Below the pieces are notes generated by a model. That model had not been told where the DNA came from, did no database searches, and saw nothing but the letters and a program-made list of their open reading frames with translations. Below are positions 13,376 to 16,240 of a stretch of DNA of 64,000 nt, piece after piece (the first letter of the stretch is position 1; each line of letters starts with the position of its first letter). This stretch comes from an uncultured archaeon. GTDB taxonomy: Archaea; Nanobdellota; Nanobdellia; Pacearchaeales; GW2011-AR1. Location of the stretch: positions 18,765-82,764 of the forward strand of contig CABMGE010000001.1 of NCBI GenBank assembly GCA_902385625.1, given 5' to 3'. The position numbers were made by a program, and so were the translations under genes.

Positions 13376-16240
13376 ATGACCTATATCAAAAAATTGGTGA
13401 TAAAAGGGTTTAAATCTTTTGCACGTGAAACTGAAATAAATATGGATCCGCATATGAATGTAATTGTAGGTCCAAATGGTTCTGGAAAATCCAATGTCAC
13501 AGATGCATTATGCTTTGTTCTTGGAAGACTTTCTATAAAAAGTATGCGTGCAGCAAAAGCATCCCACTTAATTTTCTCTGGAAACAAGCAATATAAAGGT
13601 GCAAATGAAGCATTTGTTGAAATTTCTTTTGATAATGCTGATAAGACTTTTGCTCTAGATCACGCTGAGATATCAGTCAGAAGAATAGTAAGGAAAAATG
13701 GCCAGAGCATATATAGAATAAATAATGAAACAAAAACAAGACAAGAAGTACTTGAATTGCTTGCACAGGCAGGAATTGACCCTCATGGATTTAATATTGT
13801 TTTACAGGGAGAAATTGAAAAATTTGTTAAAATGCCTCCTGAAGAAAGAAGAAAAGTCTTAGAAGAAGTTGCAGGAATTTCAGTTTATGAAATGAGAAAG
13901 GAAAAATCATTAAAAGAACTTGAAAAAACAGAAGAAAACATAAAACAGACAAATTCAGTCTTAAGGGAGAGAACAACCTATCTGAGAAATCTTGAAAATG
14001 AAAGAGAGCAAGCACTAAAATTTAAAAAACTCCAGGAAACAGTTAAGAGATGTAAAGCTTCAATAATAAACCGAAACCTGCAGGAAAAAGAAAAAGAACT
14101 AAGTTCTAATCTTGGAGATATTGACTCCAAAAATAAGGAGATAAAAAAAAGAGAAGAGCAAATTGTAAAAGTAGGTCAGGAAATAAATGCCTTAAATGAA
14201 AAAATAAATAATATTTCTCAAACTATCCAAAATTCATCAGGCCTTGAACAAGATGCACTTTTACTTGAAATATCTACACTAAAGCAGGAAGTAGCAGGGC
14301 TAATTGCAAAAAAGGAAAACTTTGAAAATCAGGTTCTTGAACTCAAAAGAAGAAAACAATCACTTGAAGATTCTGTCAAAGTAATGGAGGAAGAAATAAG
14401 TGAAATATCAAAAGAAAAAGGAAAAGACAAGAAAAAAGAACTAGAGACAAAAAAAGCAAGGCTAGAAGAACTTGACGAAGCAAAAAGACAATACTTTGTA
14501 ATTAAGTCAAGCTTGTCATCAACCCTCTCTCAATTGGATGATAAAAAAAGACAGGTCCAAAGATTCAAAAACGAGTCCAATTTTATAATGGATCAGATTG
14601 AACAAATAGAAAAAGAAATAAGAATAAAAGAAGATTTGGAAAGACACCAAGAAGCAATAATAAATCTAAAAAATTTAATTGAGGAAAATAAGACTGCTGT
14701 TGTAAAGTTTGAAGAAGAAATGCTTGAAAAACAAAAGATCTCCGCTGCGCAAAGCCATGTAATTCTTGAAGCAGAAAAAGTAAAATCACAGGTTTCAAAA
14801 CTTGATATCTGTCCCTTATGTAAAACAAAGATCACAAAAGAACACATTGATGAGGTAATAAGTAAATCTAATTCAGATATAACTAACTCCAAAAACCTGG
14901 TTCAACAATTAGAAAAGGAAATTAAAGAAATGAAAACTGCCTTGACTGAATTAAAGGATAAAATTGCAAAAGAAGCACTTGAAATAAATCAGAGAAATGT
15001 GGATATAGTAAAATTACACTCAATAGATGATAAAAAACAGCAGTTAAGAAGAAATAACGAGCAAATAACTATTTTTGAATCTGAAATTGCAGGTCTTGAA
15101 ACAAAGAAAAAAGGTTTTGAAGGAAAAATTTCAATAACAAAGATAAGCGAAGAACAGTATGAAGCATTAAAACTCGAAGTAAATGAGCTTCAAAGAACAG
15201 AAGAGAGAAATTTAGGAGTTGAAATAACTTCTAAACAAAGGGAACTTGAAAGGATAAGGCTTGCAATAAAACAAAACATCAGGGATTTTGATGATATTAC
15301 AGAGCAGTTAAAGGATATAAAACAAAGTTTGGATGATAAACAACATATAGTAAAAGAAAAAGAAGAGCAAGCTGAAATTTTGAAAAGAAAATATCAGAAA
15401 ATGTTTGAACAGAAAAATGAACTTCAGGATAAAGTAAGGATGTTTGAGTCAAACTTAATGCATAAGCAAAATGAGAAAAGACTTCTTGAAAACGAAAATA
15501 ATAATCTTATGATCACAAAAGCACAGATTTCAGCAAGAAAAGAAACTTTAATGCAGGAAATAAGAGAATATGAAGGAATTGAATTTATTTCTTTATCTGT
15601 GGATAAACTAGCTGAAAAACTAAAAGAAACTGAAGATATTCTTTCAAGAATTGGAAGTGTTAATATGAGGGCTCTTGAAGTCTATGATGAAATAAAACTT
15701 GAGTATGATAAAATAAGGGAAAAAGTTGAACAGTTGGAAAAAGAAAAGCAGGAAATACTGGGTGTAATAGATCAGATTGACAAGAAAAAGAAAAAGGCTT
15801 TCATGCATACCCTTGAAAAAATAAATGAATTATTCTCTAGAAATTTCTCTCAGTTAAGTACCAAGGGAATTGTAACTCTTGAGCCAGAAGATAAAAAAGA
15901 AGTTTTCAATGCAGGACTTGATATAATTGTAAAAGTTGGAGGAGGAAAATATTTTGATGTTACTTCTCTATCAGGAGGAGAACAGACTCTTGTTGCATTA
16001 TCTTTAATTTTCTCAATACAGGAATTCAAGCCTTATTGTTTTTACATATTTGATGAAATAGATGCAGCGCTTGATAGAAGAAACTCAGAAAAGTTAGCTT
16101 ATCTTCTCAAAAAGTATATGAAAGAAGGACAATATCTAATAATTACTCACAATGATTCAATAATCTCCGAGTCTTCAAATGTTCTATATGGAGTATCAAT
16201 GCAGGAAGGTATTTCCAAGGTTCTTAGTTTGGAAGTTTAG
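13376..16240 (+). CDS. SMC-like coiled-coil ATPase with central CxxC (zinc-hook-like) instead of a hinge
   Basis: SMC-type head: [62 protein letters not shown]. Long K/E-rich coiled coil. CPLC at codons 479-482 of 954. Confidence 0.85.
   Translation: [954 protein letters not shown]

What the first reader, a model, noticed from the sequence alone, without database searches (positions are those of the whole stretch)
13376..16240. SMC-type head domains joined by a coiled coil with a central CPLC: a zinc-hook SMC chimera
The N- and C-terminal head motifs are of SMC type rather than Rad50 type. They are FKSFA, [20 protein letters not shown], and [36 protein letters not shown]. The protein is only 954 aa and I cannot see a hinge domain; there is no Gly-rich globular insert. 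Instead a single CPLC sits at residues 479-482, within a few residues of the exact midpoint (nt 14810-14821). A Rad50/SbcC zinc hook sits in exactly that position. No mre11/sbcD, scpA or scpB gene is adjacent. The gene is flanked by two paralogous tandem-Lrp regulators.
Basis: partly seen in the sequence, partly recalled or inferred. Interest (0 to 1): 0.65.

Follow-up and report, generated by a model that had tools for sequence, protein, structure and literature searches.

The report
Natural SMC with a zinc hook
This gene from a tiny DPANN archaeon (Pacearchaeota) encodes a chromosome-organising SMC protein in which the usual globular "hinge" that joins two SMC molecules is replaced by the small zinc-binding hook known from the DNA-repair protein Rad50, a natural version of a chimera so far built only in the laboratory.

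Summary

**What is in the window**
- Window 13376-16240 (+) encodes a 954-aa protein.
- Both ATPase head halves are clearly SMC-type. They score 214 and 186 bits against the SMC models, against 21-47 bits for Rad50 and ASRP. The best solved match is the Pyrococcus Smc head, at 1.8e-101.
- No SMC hinge is detectable.
- The arm folds back at a 14-residue loop that holds CPLC (aa 479-482).

**Evidence that the apex is a Rad50-type zinc hook**
- Every one of 161 hinge-less relatives, down to 36% identity, keeps CPxC at that spot.
- A profile of the apex hits the P. furiosus Rad50 zinc-hook structure 1L8D at E = 1.5e-10.
- 22 of 23 members hit Pfam Rad50_zn_hook.
- A predicted apex model (pLDDT 94.6) has 1L8D as its best match in the PDB (TM 0.84, 2.2 Å).

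**Evolutionary placement**
- The family is named Pacearchaeota or Nanoarchaeota wherever a name exists.
- In a distance tree of the heads it sits next to hinge-bearing Woesearchaeota SMCs.
- It is therefore most likely that lineage's own SMC with the hinge swapped for a hook.
- A second, unrelated archaeal SMC (P0260) shows the same swap.

**What remains open**
- No kleisin, Mre11 or second SMC is in the window.
- The rest of the genome could not be read, so the partners remain unknown.
- The Lrp flanks are incidental.
- I found no published description of a natural hook-SMC.

The parts
13376..16240 (+). Complete gene for the 954-aa hook-SMC (stop codon included).
   Evidence: ORF list. Pfam SMC_N spans aa 3-946. 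100% match to P0001.
13376..13876 (+). N-terminal half of the ATPase head (aa 1-167). It includes FKSFA (aa 12-16) and the Q-loop LQGE (aa 143-146).
   Evidence: NCBIfam SMC_prok_A scores 213.6 bits, against 47 for Rad50 and 21.5 for ASRP. Secondary structure from the AF2 model.
13469..13492 (+). Walker A P-loop GPNGSGKS (aa 32-39).
   Evidence: Sequence. Invariant across the family. In many homologues an intein is inserted here.
13877..14794 (+). Ascending (N-terminal) strand of the coiled-coil arm, aa 168-473. Helices span 168-343, 353-414 and 421-473.
   Evidence: AF2 full-length model. Residues 1-420 align with 1-428 of a Woesearchaeota SMC. Arm length is conserved at about 316 residues in 117 of 141 family members.
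14405..14431 (+). Break in the ascending arm helix (aa 344-352). It pairs with the break at aa 606-615 and is probably an elbow-like discontinuity.
   Evidence: AF2 model, pLDDT below 50 and non-helical. Hookless short relatives are truncated close to this point. The elbow assignment is inferred.
14690..14956 (+). Zinc-hook cassette (aa 439-527): two about 36-aa helices flanking the hook loop. This is the stretch with Rad50/ASRP-hook similarity, and it replaces hinge plus hinge-proximal coils.
   Evidence: Family profile against PDB: 1L8D 1.5e-10, 6ZFF 4.6e-10, 5GOX 4.8e-4. Pfam Rad50_zn_hook in 22 of 23 members. AF2 apex model has pLDDT 94.6, and its best PDB fold match is 1L8D at TM 0.84 and 2.2 Å. 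NCBIfam ASRP scores 33.2 bits and Rad50 18.9 bits, with no SMC hit.
14795..14836 (+). Apex loop (aa 474-487) between the two arm helices.
   Evidence: AF2 models.
14810..14821 (+). CPLC (aa 479-482), the predicted zinc ligands. Two come from each protomer of a dimer.
   Evidence: Sequence. C, P and C are invariant in all hook-class proteins. Zinc binding itself is inferred from Rad50 structures.
14837..15856 (+). Descending (C-terminal) strand of the coiled-coil arm, aa 488-827. Helices span 488-587, 592-605, 616-732, 742-759 and 766-827.
   Evidence: AF2 model. Residues from about 500 to 954 align with about 710-1166 of a Woesearchaeota SMC. Length is conserved at about 276 residues to the IGSVN motif in 116 of 141 members.
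15191..15220 (+). Break in the descending arm helix (aa 606-615), partner of the break at aa 344-352.
   Evidence: AF2 model. Alignment with the hookless short forms.
15857..16237 (+). C-terminal half of the ATPase head (aa 828-954).
   Evidence: With aa 760-954 as query, NCBIfam SMC_prok_B scores 186.3 bits, against 36.6 for ASRP and 33 for Rad50. The whole-model Foldseek match to 5xns (Pyrococcus Smc head with ScpA C-domain) has target TM 0.83.
15968..15982 (+). ABC signature motif LSGGE (aa 865-869).
   Evidence: Sequence. Invariant across the family.
16040..16057 (+). Walker B FYIFDE (aa 889-894), followed by the D-loop DAALD. The H-loop H925 lies further on.
   Evidence: Sequence. D893, E894, D896 and H925 are invariant.
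9283..9978 (+). RNase HII gene. It is the only neighbour conserved across the whole hook-SMC family. It lies directly upstream in the four relatives examined and is separated from the SMC gene by inserted genes in this window. It is context and not a demonstrated partner.
   Evidence: Pfam RNase_HII. Synteny in the P0098 locus, L001, L083 and L084.

Best explanation
The gene encodes the SMC (condensin-type) ATPase of a Pacearchaeota (DPANN) archaeon. Its central hinge domain, together with the hinge-proximal coiled coil (about 280 residues in the nearest hinge-bearing SMCs), has been replaced by an about 80-residue Rad50/ASRP-type zinc-hook cassette.

**Shown here**
- Both head halves are SMC-type and keep all ATPase motifs.
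- There is a single long antiparallel arm of conserved length.
- No hinge is present.
- An invariant CPxC sits at the apex, embedded in a sequence and predicted fold that match the P. furiosus Rad50 zinc hook.
- The family is confined, as far as names exist, to Pacearchaeota/Nanoarchaeota.
- It sits beside hinge-bearing Woesearchaeota SMCs in a head tree.

**Inferred from Rad50 structures and from the engineered B. subtilis Smc(Zh) chimera**
- Two protomers dimerise constitutively at the apex by jointly coordinating one Zn2+ with their four cysteines. This gives the usual SMC rod or ring.
- The two heads engage on ATP and are presumably bridged by a kleisin (ScpA) encoded elsewhere.
- The complex organises and segregates the chromosome, most likely by DNA loop extrusion, without any hinge-dependent DNA binding or gating.
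For: - **Heads.** Pfam SMC_N 1.2e-52. SMC_prok_A 513 bits for the whole protein, against 104 for Rad50 and 131 for ASRP. Per domain, the N-head scores 213.6, 47 and 21.5 bits for SMC, Rad50 and ASRP. The C-head scores 186.3, 33 and 36.6 bits. PDB phmmer gives Pyrococcus Smc heads at 1.8e-101 and Rad50 heads at about 1e-13. The Foldseek match of the full model to the Pyrococcus Smc head with ScpA-C (5xns) has target TM 0.83.
- **No hinge.**. The positive controls are detected.
- **Hook.** CPxC is invariant. The apex profile hits 1L8D at 1.5e-10, 6ZFF at 4.6e-10 and human RAD50 hook 5GOX at 4.8e-4, while generic coiled coils reach E = 0.03 at best. Pfam Rad50_zn_hook is found in 22 of 23 members, with best E = 4e-8. 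The extended motif D-(I/V)-C-P-x-C-(K/R)-x-x-(I/L)-(T/D)-x-E-H parallels PfRad50 GKCPVCGRELTDEHR. The AF2 apex model has pLDDT 94.6, and its top PDB match is 1L8D (TM 0.84-0.85, rmsd 2.1-2.2 Å).
- **Architecture.** The full-length AF2 model shows heads plus one helical hairpin arm with a 14-residue apex loop.
- **Boundaries of the swap.**
- **Conserved arm lengths.**
- **Orthology.** The NJ head tree groups the hook proteins with Pacearchaeota short forms and places them next to 22 hinge SMCs. Wherever those 22 carry an archaeal name it is Woesearchaeota. The hook proteins are named Pacearchaeota or Nanoarchaeota.
- **Housekeeping synteny.** RNase HII is a conserved neighbour.
- **Functional precedent.** B. 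subtilis Smc with the P. furiosus Rad50 zinc hook in place of the hinge supports normal growth on rich medium (PMC5344682). Hook and hinge are also interchangeable in Rad50 (PMC6969161; PMC7752040).
Against: - No kleisin (ScpA), kite (ScpB) or any other partner was found in the 64-kb window, or within 10 kb of five other hook-SMC genes.
- ScpA could not be shown to exist in Pacearchaeota. Searches list only Thermococcus, haloarchaeal and Micrarchaeota ScpA among the hits shown.
- The rest of the genome could not be read. A canonical hinge-bearing SMC, a Rad50 or an Mre11 elsewhere in the genome is therefore not excluded.
- The support for orthology is a distance tree with modest bootstrap (79 of 200 for the clan). 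Taxon labels are available for only a minority of sequences.
- Zinc binding and dimerisation are predicted and were not measured. Only monomer models could be computed.
- The protein falls below NCBIfam's SMC equivalog cut-off (513 against 729 bits), as expected if about 200 profile positions are missing.
Confidence: 0.7

Rival explanations
1. The hook protein is a specialised paralogue that coexists with a canonical hinge-bearing SMC elsewhere in the same genome. It would act in DNA repair or tethering in a Rad50-like manner, or in defence. It would not be the lineage's chromosomal SMC.
For: - The genome outside the window could not be inspected.
- No kleisin gene is nearby.
- The conserved neighbour is a DNA-repair/replication enzyme, RNase HII, and AP-endonuclease and Toprim genes recur in the neighbourhood.
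- Related hookless short forms exist in Pacearchaeota, which shows that the family diversifies.
Against: - Among the nearest hinge-bearing SMCs, none that carries a name is Pacearchaeota, and all four archaeal names are Woesearchaeota.
- The hook clade sits where the Pacearchaeota orthologue would be expected.
- Sequence and length conservation are very high, at 64-100% identity and 954 aa in more than 100 clusters. This is typical of a housekeeping gene.
- No defence-system architecture is present around it.
Confidence: 0.15
2. The hook-SMC works without a kleisin, as a Rad50-like or ClsN-like homodimeric DNA bridge or clamp, or with a novel non-kleisin partner. In this reading the hinge-to-hook swap accompanied a change of mechanism.
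For: - No ScpA or ScpB was found in the window, near five family members, or among named Pacearchaeota proteins in the lists seen.
- The apex of this protein scores higher against the ASRP (ClsN/Sph) model than against Rad50 models (33.2 against 18.9 bits).
- DPANN genomes are reduced (general knowledge).
Against: - Absence of evidence only, because ScpA is small, divergent and often unlinked to smc.
- The head-proximal coiled coil ('neck') and the head are as conserved as in canonical SMCs and match the Pyrococcus Smc head solved with ScpA.
- The engineered Smc(Zh) still works with ScpAB (PMC5344682).
Confidence: 0.2
3. The protein is a member of the archaea-specific SMC-related proteins (ASRP: ClsN/coalescin, Sph1/2), which are already known to have a zinc hook. 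It would not be an SMC proper.
For: - NCBIfam ASRP hit at E = 4.8e-38 for the whole protein, with the best stretch at aa 298-654 over the arm and hook.
- ASRPs are archaeal, have a zinc hook and have no hinge (PMC9389158).
Against: - The ASRP score of 131 bits is far below its cut-off of 300 and below the SMC score of 513.
- The heads score 21.5 and 36.6 bits for ASRP against 213.6 and 186.3 for SMC.
- ASRP forms a clade separate from SMC (PMC9389158). These heads are 35-40% identical to canonical Woesearchaeota SMCs along about 420 + 450 residues.
Confidence: 0.04
4. The CPxC is not an intermolecular zinc hook. It could be an intramolecular structural or redox motif, or a convergent turn signal. 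Dimerisation would then occur elsewhere or not at all.
For: - Zinc binding and dimerisation were not measured.
- Only monomer predictions were possible.
- Hookless relatives exist, which suggests the apex can be dispensable.
Against: - Two cysteines alone cannot form a tetrahedral site within one chain, and the arm contains no other conserved Cys or His ligand pair apart from H490.
- Profile similarity to solved Rad50 hooks extends over about 86 residues at E = 1e-10.
- The predicted fold superposes on 1L8D at 2.2 Å.
- Position at the exact apex and absolute conservation match Rad50.
Confidence: 0.04

Closest known systems
Engineered Bacillus subtilis Smc(Zh): Smc with its hinge replaced by the P. 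furiosus Rad50 zinc hook (Bürmann et al. 2017, PMC5344682).
   Same: The architecture is the same: SMC heads, a full-length SMC arm, and a Rad50-type CPxC hook in place of the hinge. The laboratory chimera supports normal growth, so this architecture is known to be functional.
   Different: - This one is natural, ancient and fixed in a whole archaeal lineage, at 36-100% identity among members.
- The swap also removed about 50 residues of hinge-proximal coil on each strand.
- Its partners are unknown.
Canonical prokaryotic Smc (Smc-ScpA(B)); the nearest examples are Woesearchaeota SMCs (P0152, P0159, P0162) and Pyrococcus Smc (5xei, 5xns, 4i99).
   Same: - The heads, ATPase motifs, neck and most of the arm are homologous. 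Identity is 38% over aa 1-420 and 31% over aa 500-954. Pyrococcus Smc head scores E = 1.8e-101.
- Arm length is similar.
   Different: - There is no PF06470 hinge.
- The protein is about 200 aa shorter.
- It falls below the equivalog cut-off.
- No ScpA is adjacent. An unnamed archaeal smc locus read here (L006) has scpA directly downstream.
Rad50/SbcC.
   Same: A CPxC zinc hook sits at the apex of an antiparallel coiled coil. The apex sequence and predicted fold match 1L8D, 6ZFF and 5GOX.
   Different: - The heads are not Rad50-type.
- No Mre11/SbcD gene is adjacent.
- Outside the hook cassette, the arm is homologous to SMC arms.
ASRP family (ClsN/coalescin of Sulfolobus, Sph1/Sph2 of Halobacterium; Yoshinaga et al. 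2022, PMC9389158).
   Same: These are archaeal SMC-superfamily proteins with a zinc hook and no hinge. The hook cassette of this protein scores best against the ASRP model (33.2 bits).
   Different: ASRPs form their own clade with divergent heads. Here the heads are bona fide SMC, and the protein fails the ASRP cut-off (131 against 300 bits).
'Hinge-less' SMC variants of marine Actinobacteria (Sussfeld et al. 2025, PMC12153180).
   Same: They have SMC-clade heads and an arm with the hinge domain missing.
   Different: Those proteins are bacterial and explicitly lack the CXXC motif. Here the hinge is replaced by a conserved zinc hook. The hookless 779-804-aa Pacearchaeota relatives (P0139 and others) resemble them more closely.

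Membership tests
SMC proper (prokaryotic Smc; TIGR02169/TIGR02168, PF02463 + PF06470) | SMC-type bipartite ABC ATPase head (Walker A, Q-loop, signature LSGGE, Walker B, D-loop, H-loop). | tested here: met
   - SMC_N 1.2e-52.
- Head halves score 213.6 and 186.3 bits against the SMC models.
- Pyrococcus Smc head 1.8e-101.
- Motifs are invariant.
- Foldseek match to 5xns has TMt 0.83.
SMC proper (prokaryotic Smc; TIGR02169/TIGR02168, PF02463 + PF06470) | Long intramolecular antiparallel coiled-coil arm of about 300 or more residues per strand. | tested here: met
   - AF2 model: helices span aa 168-473 and 488-827.
- The arm aligns with the arm of a Woesearchaeota SMC.
- Arm length is conserved.
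SMC proper (prokaryotic Smc; TIGR02169/TIGR02168, PF02463 + PF06470) | Globular hinge dimerisation domain (PF06470) at the apex. | tested here: not met
   - No hit in Pfam at E up to 1.
- No hit with a custom hinge HMM that detects 98 canonical relatives.
- The apex is a 14-residue loop.
SMC proper (prokaryotic Smc; TIGR02169/TIGR02168, PF02463 + PF06470) | Score above the curated equivalog cut-off. | tested here: not met
   TIGR02169 scores 512.9 bits against a cut-off of 729.4. TIGR02168 scores 505 bits against 567.35. The shortfall corresponds to the missing hinge positions.
SMC proper (prokaryotic Smc; TIGR02169/TIGR02168, PF02463 + PF06470) | Heads branch within the SMC clade, as the orthologue of neighbouring lineages' SMC. 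| tested here: met
   - The NJ head tree places the family next to 22 hinge SMCs, named Woesearchaeota wherever an archaeal name exists.
- This is a distance method only, no Rad50 or ASRP outgroup was included, and bootstrap support is 79 of 200.
SMC proper (prokaryotic Smc; TIGR02169/TIGR02168, PF02463 + PF06470) | Kleisin partner (ScpA) bridging the heads. | tested here: inconclusive
   - No ScpA is found in the window or within 10 kb of five other family members. The positive control L006 is detected.
- The rest of the genome is unreadable.
Rad50/SbcC | CxxC zinc hook at the coiled-coil apex. | tested here: met
   - CPxC is invariant.
- The apex profile hits 1L8D at 1.5e-10.
- PF04423 is found in 22 of 23 members, although this protein alone is below the Pfam cut-off: 13.9-19.3 bits against 24.3.
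- The predicted fold matches 1L8D at TM 0.84.
- Zinc binding was not measured.
Rad50/SbcC | Rad50-type ATPase head. | tested here: not met
   - Rad50 models score 33-104 bits against cut-offs of 700-1087.
- Rad50 head structures score about 1e-13, against 1e-101 for Smc.
Rad50/SbcC | Mre11/SbcD nuclease partner, usually in the same operon. | tested here: not met
   - No metallophosphoesterase/Mre11 hit appears in the window ORFs scanned.
- None appears in the Pfam listings of neighbouring genes of four other loci.
- Only adjacency was tested.
ASRP (ClsN/Sph; NF045487) | Score above the family cut-off, with heads of the ASRP clade. | tested here: not met
   The whole protein scores 131 bits against a cut-off of 300. 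The head halves score 21.5 and 36.6 bits.
ASRP (ClsN/Sph; NF045487) | Zinc hook in place of a hinge. | tested here: met
   The apex (aa 430-530) aligns to ASRP profile positions 261-353 at E = 2.2e-8.
Hinge-less actinobacterial SMC (PMC12153180) | SMC heads, no hinge and no CXXC motif. | tested here: not met
   CXXC is present and invariant here. That paper states CXXC is absent from its cluster.

The most novel reading that the evidence does not exclude
Evolution has replaced the SMC hinge with a zinc hook at least twice. One case is in Pacearchaeota and the other is the unrelated archaeal lineage of P0260. In these organisms the hook-SMC is the only SMC. On this reading, every hinge-specific activity proposed for SMC complexes (DNA binding, DNA entry or exit, obstacle bypass through the hinge) is dispensable for chromosome maintenance in free-evolving cells. 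Some Pacearchaeota have gone further, to SMCs with neither hinge nor hook and only half an arm.
Probability: 0.45. Interest if true: 0.8.

Novelty: new variant of a known kind. Interest (0 to 1): 0.68.

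Why it matters
The role of the SMC hinge is an active debate. Proposed roles are a plain dimerisation clamp, a DNA-binding site, a DNA gate and an obstacle-bypass gate (for example PMC9467508 and PMC12647877, listed).

So far the only evidence that the hinge fold is irrelevant comes from one engineered B. subtilis chimera grown on rich medium (PMC5344682).

A whole archaeal lineage that has lived for a long time with a zinc hook in place of the hinge is a natural experiment on the same question. 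The lineage spans 36-100% sequence identity, and its arm length is strictly conserved.
- It offers ready-made, evolution-optimised proteins for loop-extrusion and structural work.
- It shows that the apical dimerisation modules of the SMC superfamily are exchangeable cassettes in nature.
- It warns annotators that 'chromosome segregation SMC family protein' in DPANN genomes hides a different architecture.

The practical value is limited until the partners (kleisin or none) are known and it is established whether this is the sole SMC in the genome.

Tried and rejected
1. **Scan of GTDB genomes for relatives.** I therefore obtained no genome-level co-occurrence data.
2. **Looking up window-end proteins to read the contig beyond the window.** None is on record.
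3. **ScpA searches.**
   - I started from a verified archaeal ScpA (L006 5285-6022). A single-sequence search gave 21 hits. A profile search gave 406 hits, of which 120 were shown.
   - No Pacearchaeota or Woesearchaeota name appears among those shown. This neither proves nor disproves that ScpA is present.
   - A ScpA HMM built from 119 of these sequences finds nothing in the window or in five hook-SMC loci.
4. **ASRP membership.** Rejected on scores.
5. **Rad50 orthology.** Rejected on head scores.
6. **A functional link to the flanking tandem-Lrp regulators and the B12-radical-SAM gene.** Rejected, because these neighbours are absent from the four other loci examined.
7. **The conserved 292/297-aa gene downstream (window 19837-20715) as a hidden kleisin.** It has no ScpA signal and a weak HPr-like domain, so it was not pursued.
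8. **Strict monophyly of hook-bearing proteins.** Not recovered. Three hookless short proteins nest inside the clade, and P0260 lies elsewhere.
9. **Four literature searches for a natural SMC with a zinc hook.** No description was found, but the library does not hold most subscription-journal papers.

Full report
**Observation.** The window is about 30% G+C. It carries archaeal housekeeping genes: RNA polymerase Rpb1- and Rpb2-type subunits, EF-2 and ribosomal protein S7. The ORF at 13376..16240 (+) encodes 954 aa. The protein has five cysteines, and residues 351-550 contain no glycine. Pfam reports SMC_N spanning aa 3-946, no SMC_hinge, and a sub-threshold Rad50_zn_hook hit at aa 478-502 (E = 0.048, 13.9 bits against a cut-off of 24.3).

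**The heads are SMC-type.**
- NCBIfam gives SMC_prok_A 513 bits and SMC_prok_B 505 bits. The ASRP model scores 131 bits and the best Rad50 model 104 bits.
- Scored separately, the N-terminal head half (aa 1-170) gives 213.6 bits for SMC, 47 for Rad50 and 21.5 for ASRP. The C-terminal half (aa 760-954) gives 186.3, 33 and 36.6 bits.
- Against all PDB sequences, the best matches are Pyrococcus Smc heads at 1.8e-101. Rad50 heads reach only about 1e-13.
- The AlphaFold2 model built on 54 family members has mean pLDDT 74.9. It matches the Pyrococcus Smc head solved with the ScpA C-domain (5xns) at target TM 0.83.
- All ATPase motifs are invariant in the family.

**There is no hinge, and the apex is a zinc hook.**
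- The full-length model is a head plus one helical hairpin. Helices span 168-343, 353-414 and 421-473. A 14-residue loop at 474-487 holds CPLC. Helices then span 488-587, 592-605, 616-732, 742-759 and 766-827.
- I built a profile from 23 diverse family members covering 40 residues before and 45 after the CPxC. It hits the P. furiosus Rad50 zinc-hook structures 1L8D (E = 1.5e-10) and 6ZFF (4.6e-10), and the human RAD50 hook 5GOX (4.8e-4). The best unrelated chains, coiled coils and RING fingers, reach E = 0.03 at best.
- Scanned one at a time, 22 of the 23 fragments hit Pfam Rad50_zn_hook at E up to 1, with best E = 4e-8. The window's own fragment scores 19.3 bits, still below the Pfam cut-off.
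- The conserved motif is D-(I/V)-C-P-x-C-(K/R)-x-x-(I/L)-(T/D)-x-E-H. This parallels PfRad50 GKCPVCGRELTDEHR.
- An AF2 model of the 89-residue apex has pLDDT 94.6. Its two best matches in the whole PDB are the two chains of 1L8D, at TM 0.84-0.85, rmsd 2.1-2.2 Å and 28% identity.
- The NCBIfam ASRP model (ClsN/Sph, also hook-bearing) matches this apex at 33.2 bits, and a Rad50 model at 18.9 bits. No SMC model matches it.

**Conservation and distribution.**
- The 120 closest homologues are 64-100% identical and mostly exactly 954 aa. All carry one CxxC, which is CPLC at the same place. Where named, they come from Candidatus Pacearchaeota or Nanoarchaeota MAGs and are annotated 'chromosome segregation SMC family protein'.
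- An exhaustive HMMER scan of 1.84 billion cluster representatives extends the family to 36-49% identity, with lengths of 946-1023 aa. The second hook position varies (L, T, F, V, M, I, K), but C-P-x-C is invariant.
- A hinge HMM built from Pfam-verified hinges splits the 279 retrieved proteins into 161 hook, 98 hinge and 20 with neither. No protein has both.
- In the 19-sequence alignment, only five columns of the arm are invariant. Three of them are C479, P480 and C482.
- Arm lengths are tightly conserved. The distance from the EEVAGI motif to the first cysteine is 316 residues in 117 of 141 proteins. The distance from the second cysteine to IGSVN is 276 residues in 116 of 141.

**What was replaced.** BLASTP against a Woesearchaeota SMC (P0152, 1166 aa, hinge at 520-637) aligns aa 1-420 with 1-428 at 38% identity. 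It aligns aa about 500-954 with about 710-1166 at 31% identity. About 80 residues here therefore stand in for about 280 residues of hinge plus hinge-proximal coiled coil. That size matches the roughly 86-residue stretch that aligns with the Rad50 hook fragment. This pattern suggests a cassette exchange with a hook-bearing gene, either Rad50 or ASRP. That step is inferred and not shown.

**Evolutionary placement.**
- I built a neighbour-joining tree of concatenated head halves: 105 proteins, 367 columns and 200 bootstraps.
- It groups the 19 full-length hook proteins with three hookless, hingeless proteins of 779-804 aa (P0139, P0141, P0143). Bootstrap support for this clan is 79 of 200. A fourth short protein (P0145) branches next.
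- The sister group is 22 hinge-bearing SMCs. The named members of that sister group are Woesearchaeota (P0152, the P0156 cluster, P0159, P0162). One is labelled Nitrospiraceae bacterium and may be misassigned.
- Named hook proteins and short forms are Pacearchaeota.
- The simplest reading is that the hook-SMC is the Pacearchaeota orthologue of the DPANN SMC. The tree is a distance tree without outgroups, so this is moderately supported.
- A further hook-bearing SMC is P0260 (999 aa, CPVC at aa 500), from an archaeal contig of 38% G+C. It aligns to the SMC profile at positions 2-501 and 690-1170. Its heads are nearest to hinge-bearing SMCs and not to the Pacearchaeota clade. The swap may therefore have happened more than once.

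**Genomic context.**
- The two flanking tandem-Lrp genes are real paralogues at 33% identity. They and the adjacent B12-radical-SAM gene are absent from the loci of P0098, P0050, P0144 and P0140.
- The conserved neighbour is RNase HII, directly upstream in all four loci. In the window it lies at 9283-9978.
- A divergent bPH_2 gene is shared only with the closest relatives. In the window it lies at 12730-13254.
- No ScpA, ScpB, Mre11 or Rad50 family hit occurs in the window ORFs scanned.
- A ScpA HMM built from 119 archaeal ScpA sequences finds its positive control (L006, 2e-66). It finds nothing in the window or in five hook-SMC loci.
- Attempts to see the rest of the genome failed. Whether ScpA exists in Pacearchaeota stays open.

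**Mechanism.**
- Shown: the architecture.
- Inferred from Rad50 hook structures: two CPxC motifs from two chains coordinate one Zn2+ and give a constitutive apical dimer.
- Inferred from the SMC-type heads, neck and conserved arm length: the dimer runs a normal SMC ATPase cycle, presumably with a kleisin.
- The engineered B. subtilis Smc(Zh) shows that exactly this architecture can replace wild-type Smc. Arm-arm association was near normal and growth on rich medium was normal. That led its authors to conclude that the fold of the dimerisation domain is irrelevant for chromosome segregation (PMC5344682; also PMC7752040).
- I rate the full statement at 0.7. The structural identification alone I rate at about 0.9.

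**Comparison with known systems and novelty.**
- Zinc hooks are known in Rad50/SbcC and in ASRPs such as ClsN and Sph1/2 (PMC9389158). Both have non-SMC heads.
- Hinge-less SMCs were reported in marine Actinobacteria, but explicitly without CXXC (PMC12153180).
- Four full-text searches found no description of a natural SMC-clade protein with a zinc hook. The library does not hold most subscription-journal papers, so prior mention elsewhere cannot be excluded.
- I classify the finding as a new variant of a known kind.

Noticed in passing
L085 10001-13000 (protein P0260): A second hook-bearing SMC: 999 aa with CPVC at aa 500, on an archaeal contig of 38% G+C. SMC profile positions 2-501 and 690-1170 are present and the hinge is missing. 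Its heads are nearest to hinge-type SMCs and not to the Pacearchaeota hook clade, which suggests an independent hinge-to-hook replacement.
   Followed up: partly
Proteins P0139/P0276 (PIU75690.1), P0141, P0143, P0145 (not in the window): Pacearchaeota SMC-head proteins of 779-804 aa with neither hinge nor CxxC. They nest in or next to the hook clade. Compared with the hook-SMC, they lack the distal half of the arm (roughly aa 350-610 of the window protein). I do not know how they dimerise, or whether they coexist with a hook-SMC.
   Followed up: partly
Homologues P0024, P0029, P0030, P0065, P0066, P0073, P0107, P0109, P0113, P0114, P0124, P0128; the corresponding site in the window is 13469-13492: Many hook-SMC homologues carry an intein inside the Walker A P-loop (GPNGSGK|C...HN|SN). 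It is either a full LAGLIDADG form of about 525-535 aa or a mini-intein of about 160 aa. The window's copy is intein-free.
   Followed up: partly
Window 9283-9978 (+); L001 8626-9267, L083 9133-9933, L084 8936-9637: An RNase HII gene lies directly upstream of the hook-SMC gene across the whole family (39-100% identity). In the window it has been separated by about 3.4 kb of inserted genes. It is unknown whether this is an operon or just preserved gene order.
   Followed up: partly
Window 11682-12683 (+), 16237-17286 (-), 17299-18867 (+): Two paralogous tandem Lrp/AsnC proteins (each with two HTH and a ligand-domain signal, 33% identical) bracket the SMC gene, and a B12-binding radical-SAM gene follows. 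These genes are not present at the loci of relatives and look like lineage-specific insertions. The minus-strand Lrp gene overlaps the SMC stop codon by 4 nt.
   Followed up: partly
Window 48795-52352 (-): A single 1185-aa RNA polymerase largest subunit carries Rpb1 domains 1 to 5 in one polypeptide. The A' and A'' parts, which are separate genes in most archaea (general knowledge), appear to be fused here.
   Followed up: no
Window 4224-8313 (-): Bacterial-type fatty-acid genes sit in an archaeal genome: a beta-ketoacyl synthase (FabF-like) at 4224-5570 and an NMO/FabK-like enoyl reductase candidate at 5571-6731. They are followed by another B12-binding radical-SAM gene at 6802-8313.
   Followed up: no
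L014 8169-10418, L026 2456-4738, L028 6933-9182, L082 3568-5853: SMC matches of only about 750 aa in Saccharibacteria/Patescibacteria (CPR) genomes, covering query residues 1/3 to 952/953. These may be mini-SMCs or hinge-less forms. I did not examine them.
   Followed up: no
Window 19837-20715 (-); L001 12871-13764, L002 4333-5226: A 292-aa protein with only a weak C-terminal PTS-HPr-like hit. A gene of similar size (297 aa) with no family hit, probably its counterpart, sits immediately downstream of the SMC gene in close relatives, on the opposite strand. It has no ScpA signal.
   Followed up: partly
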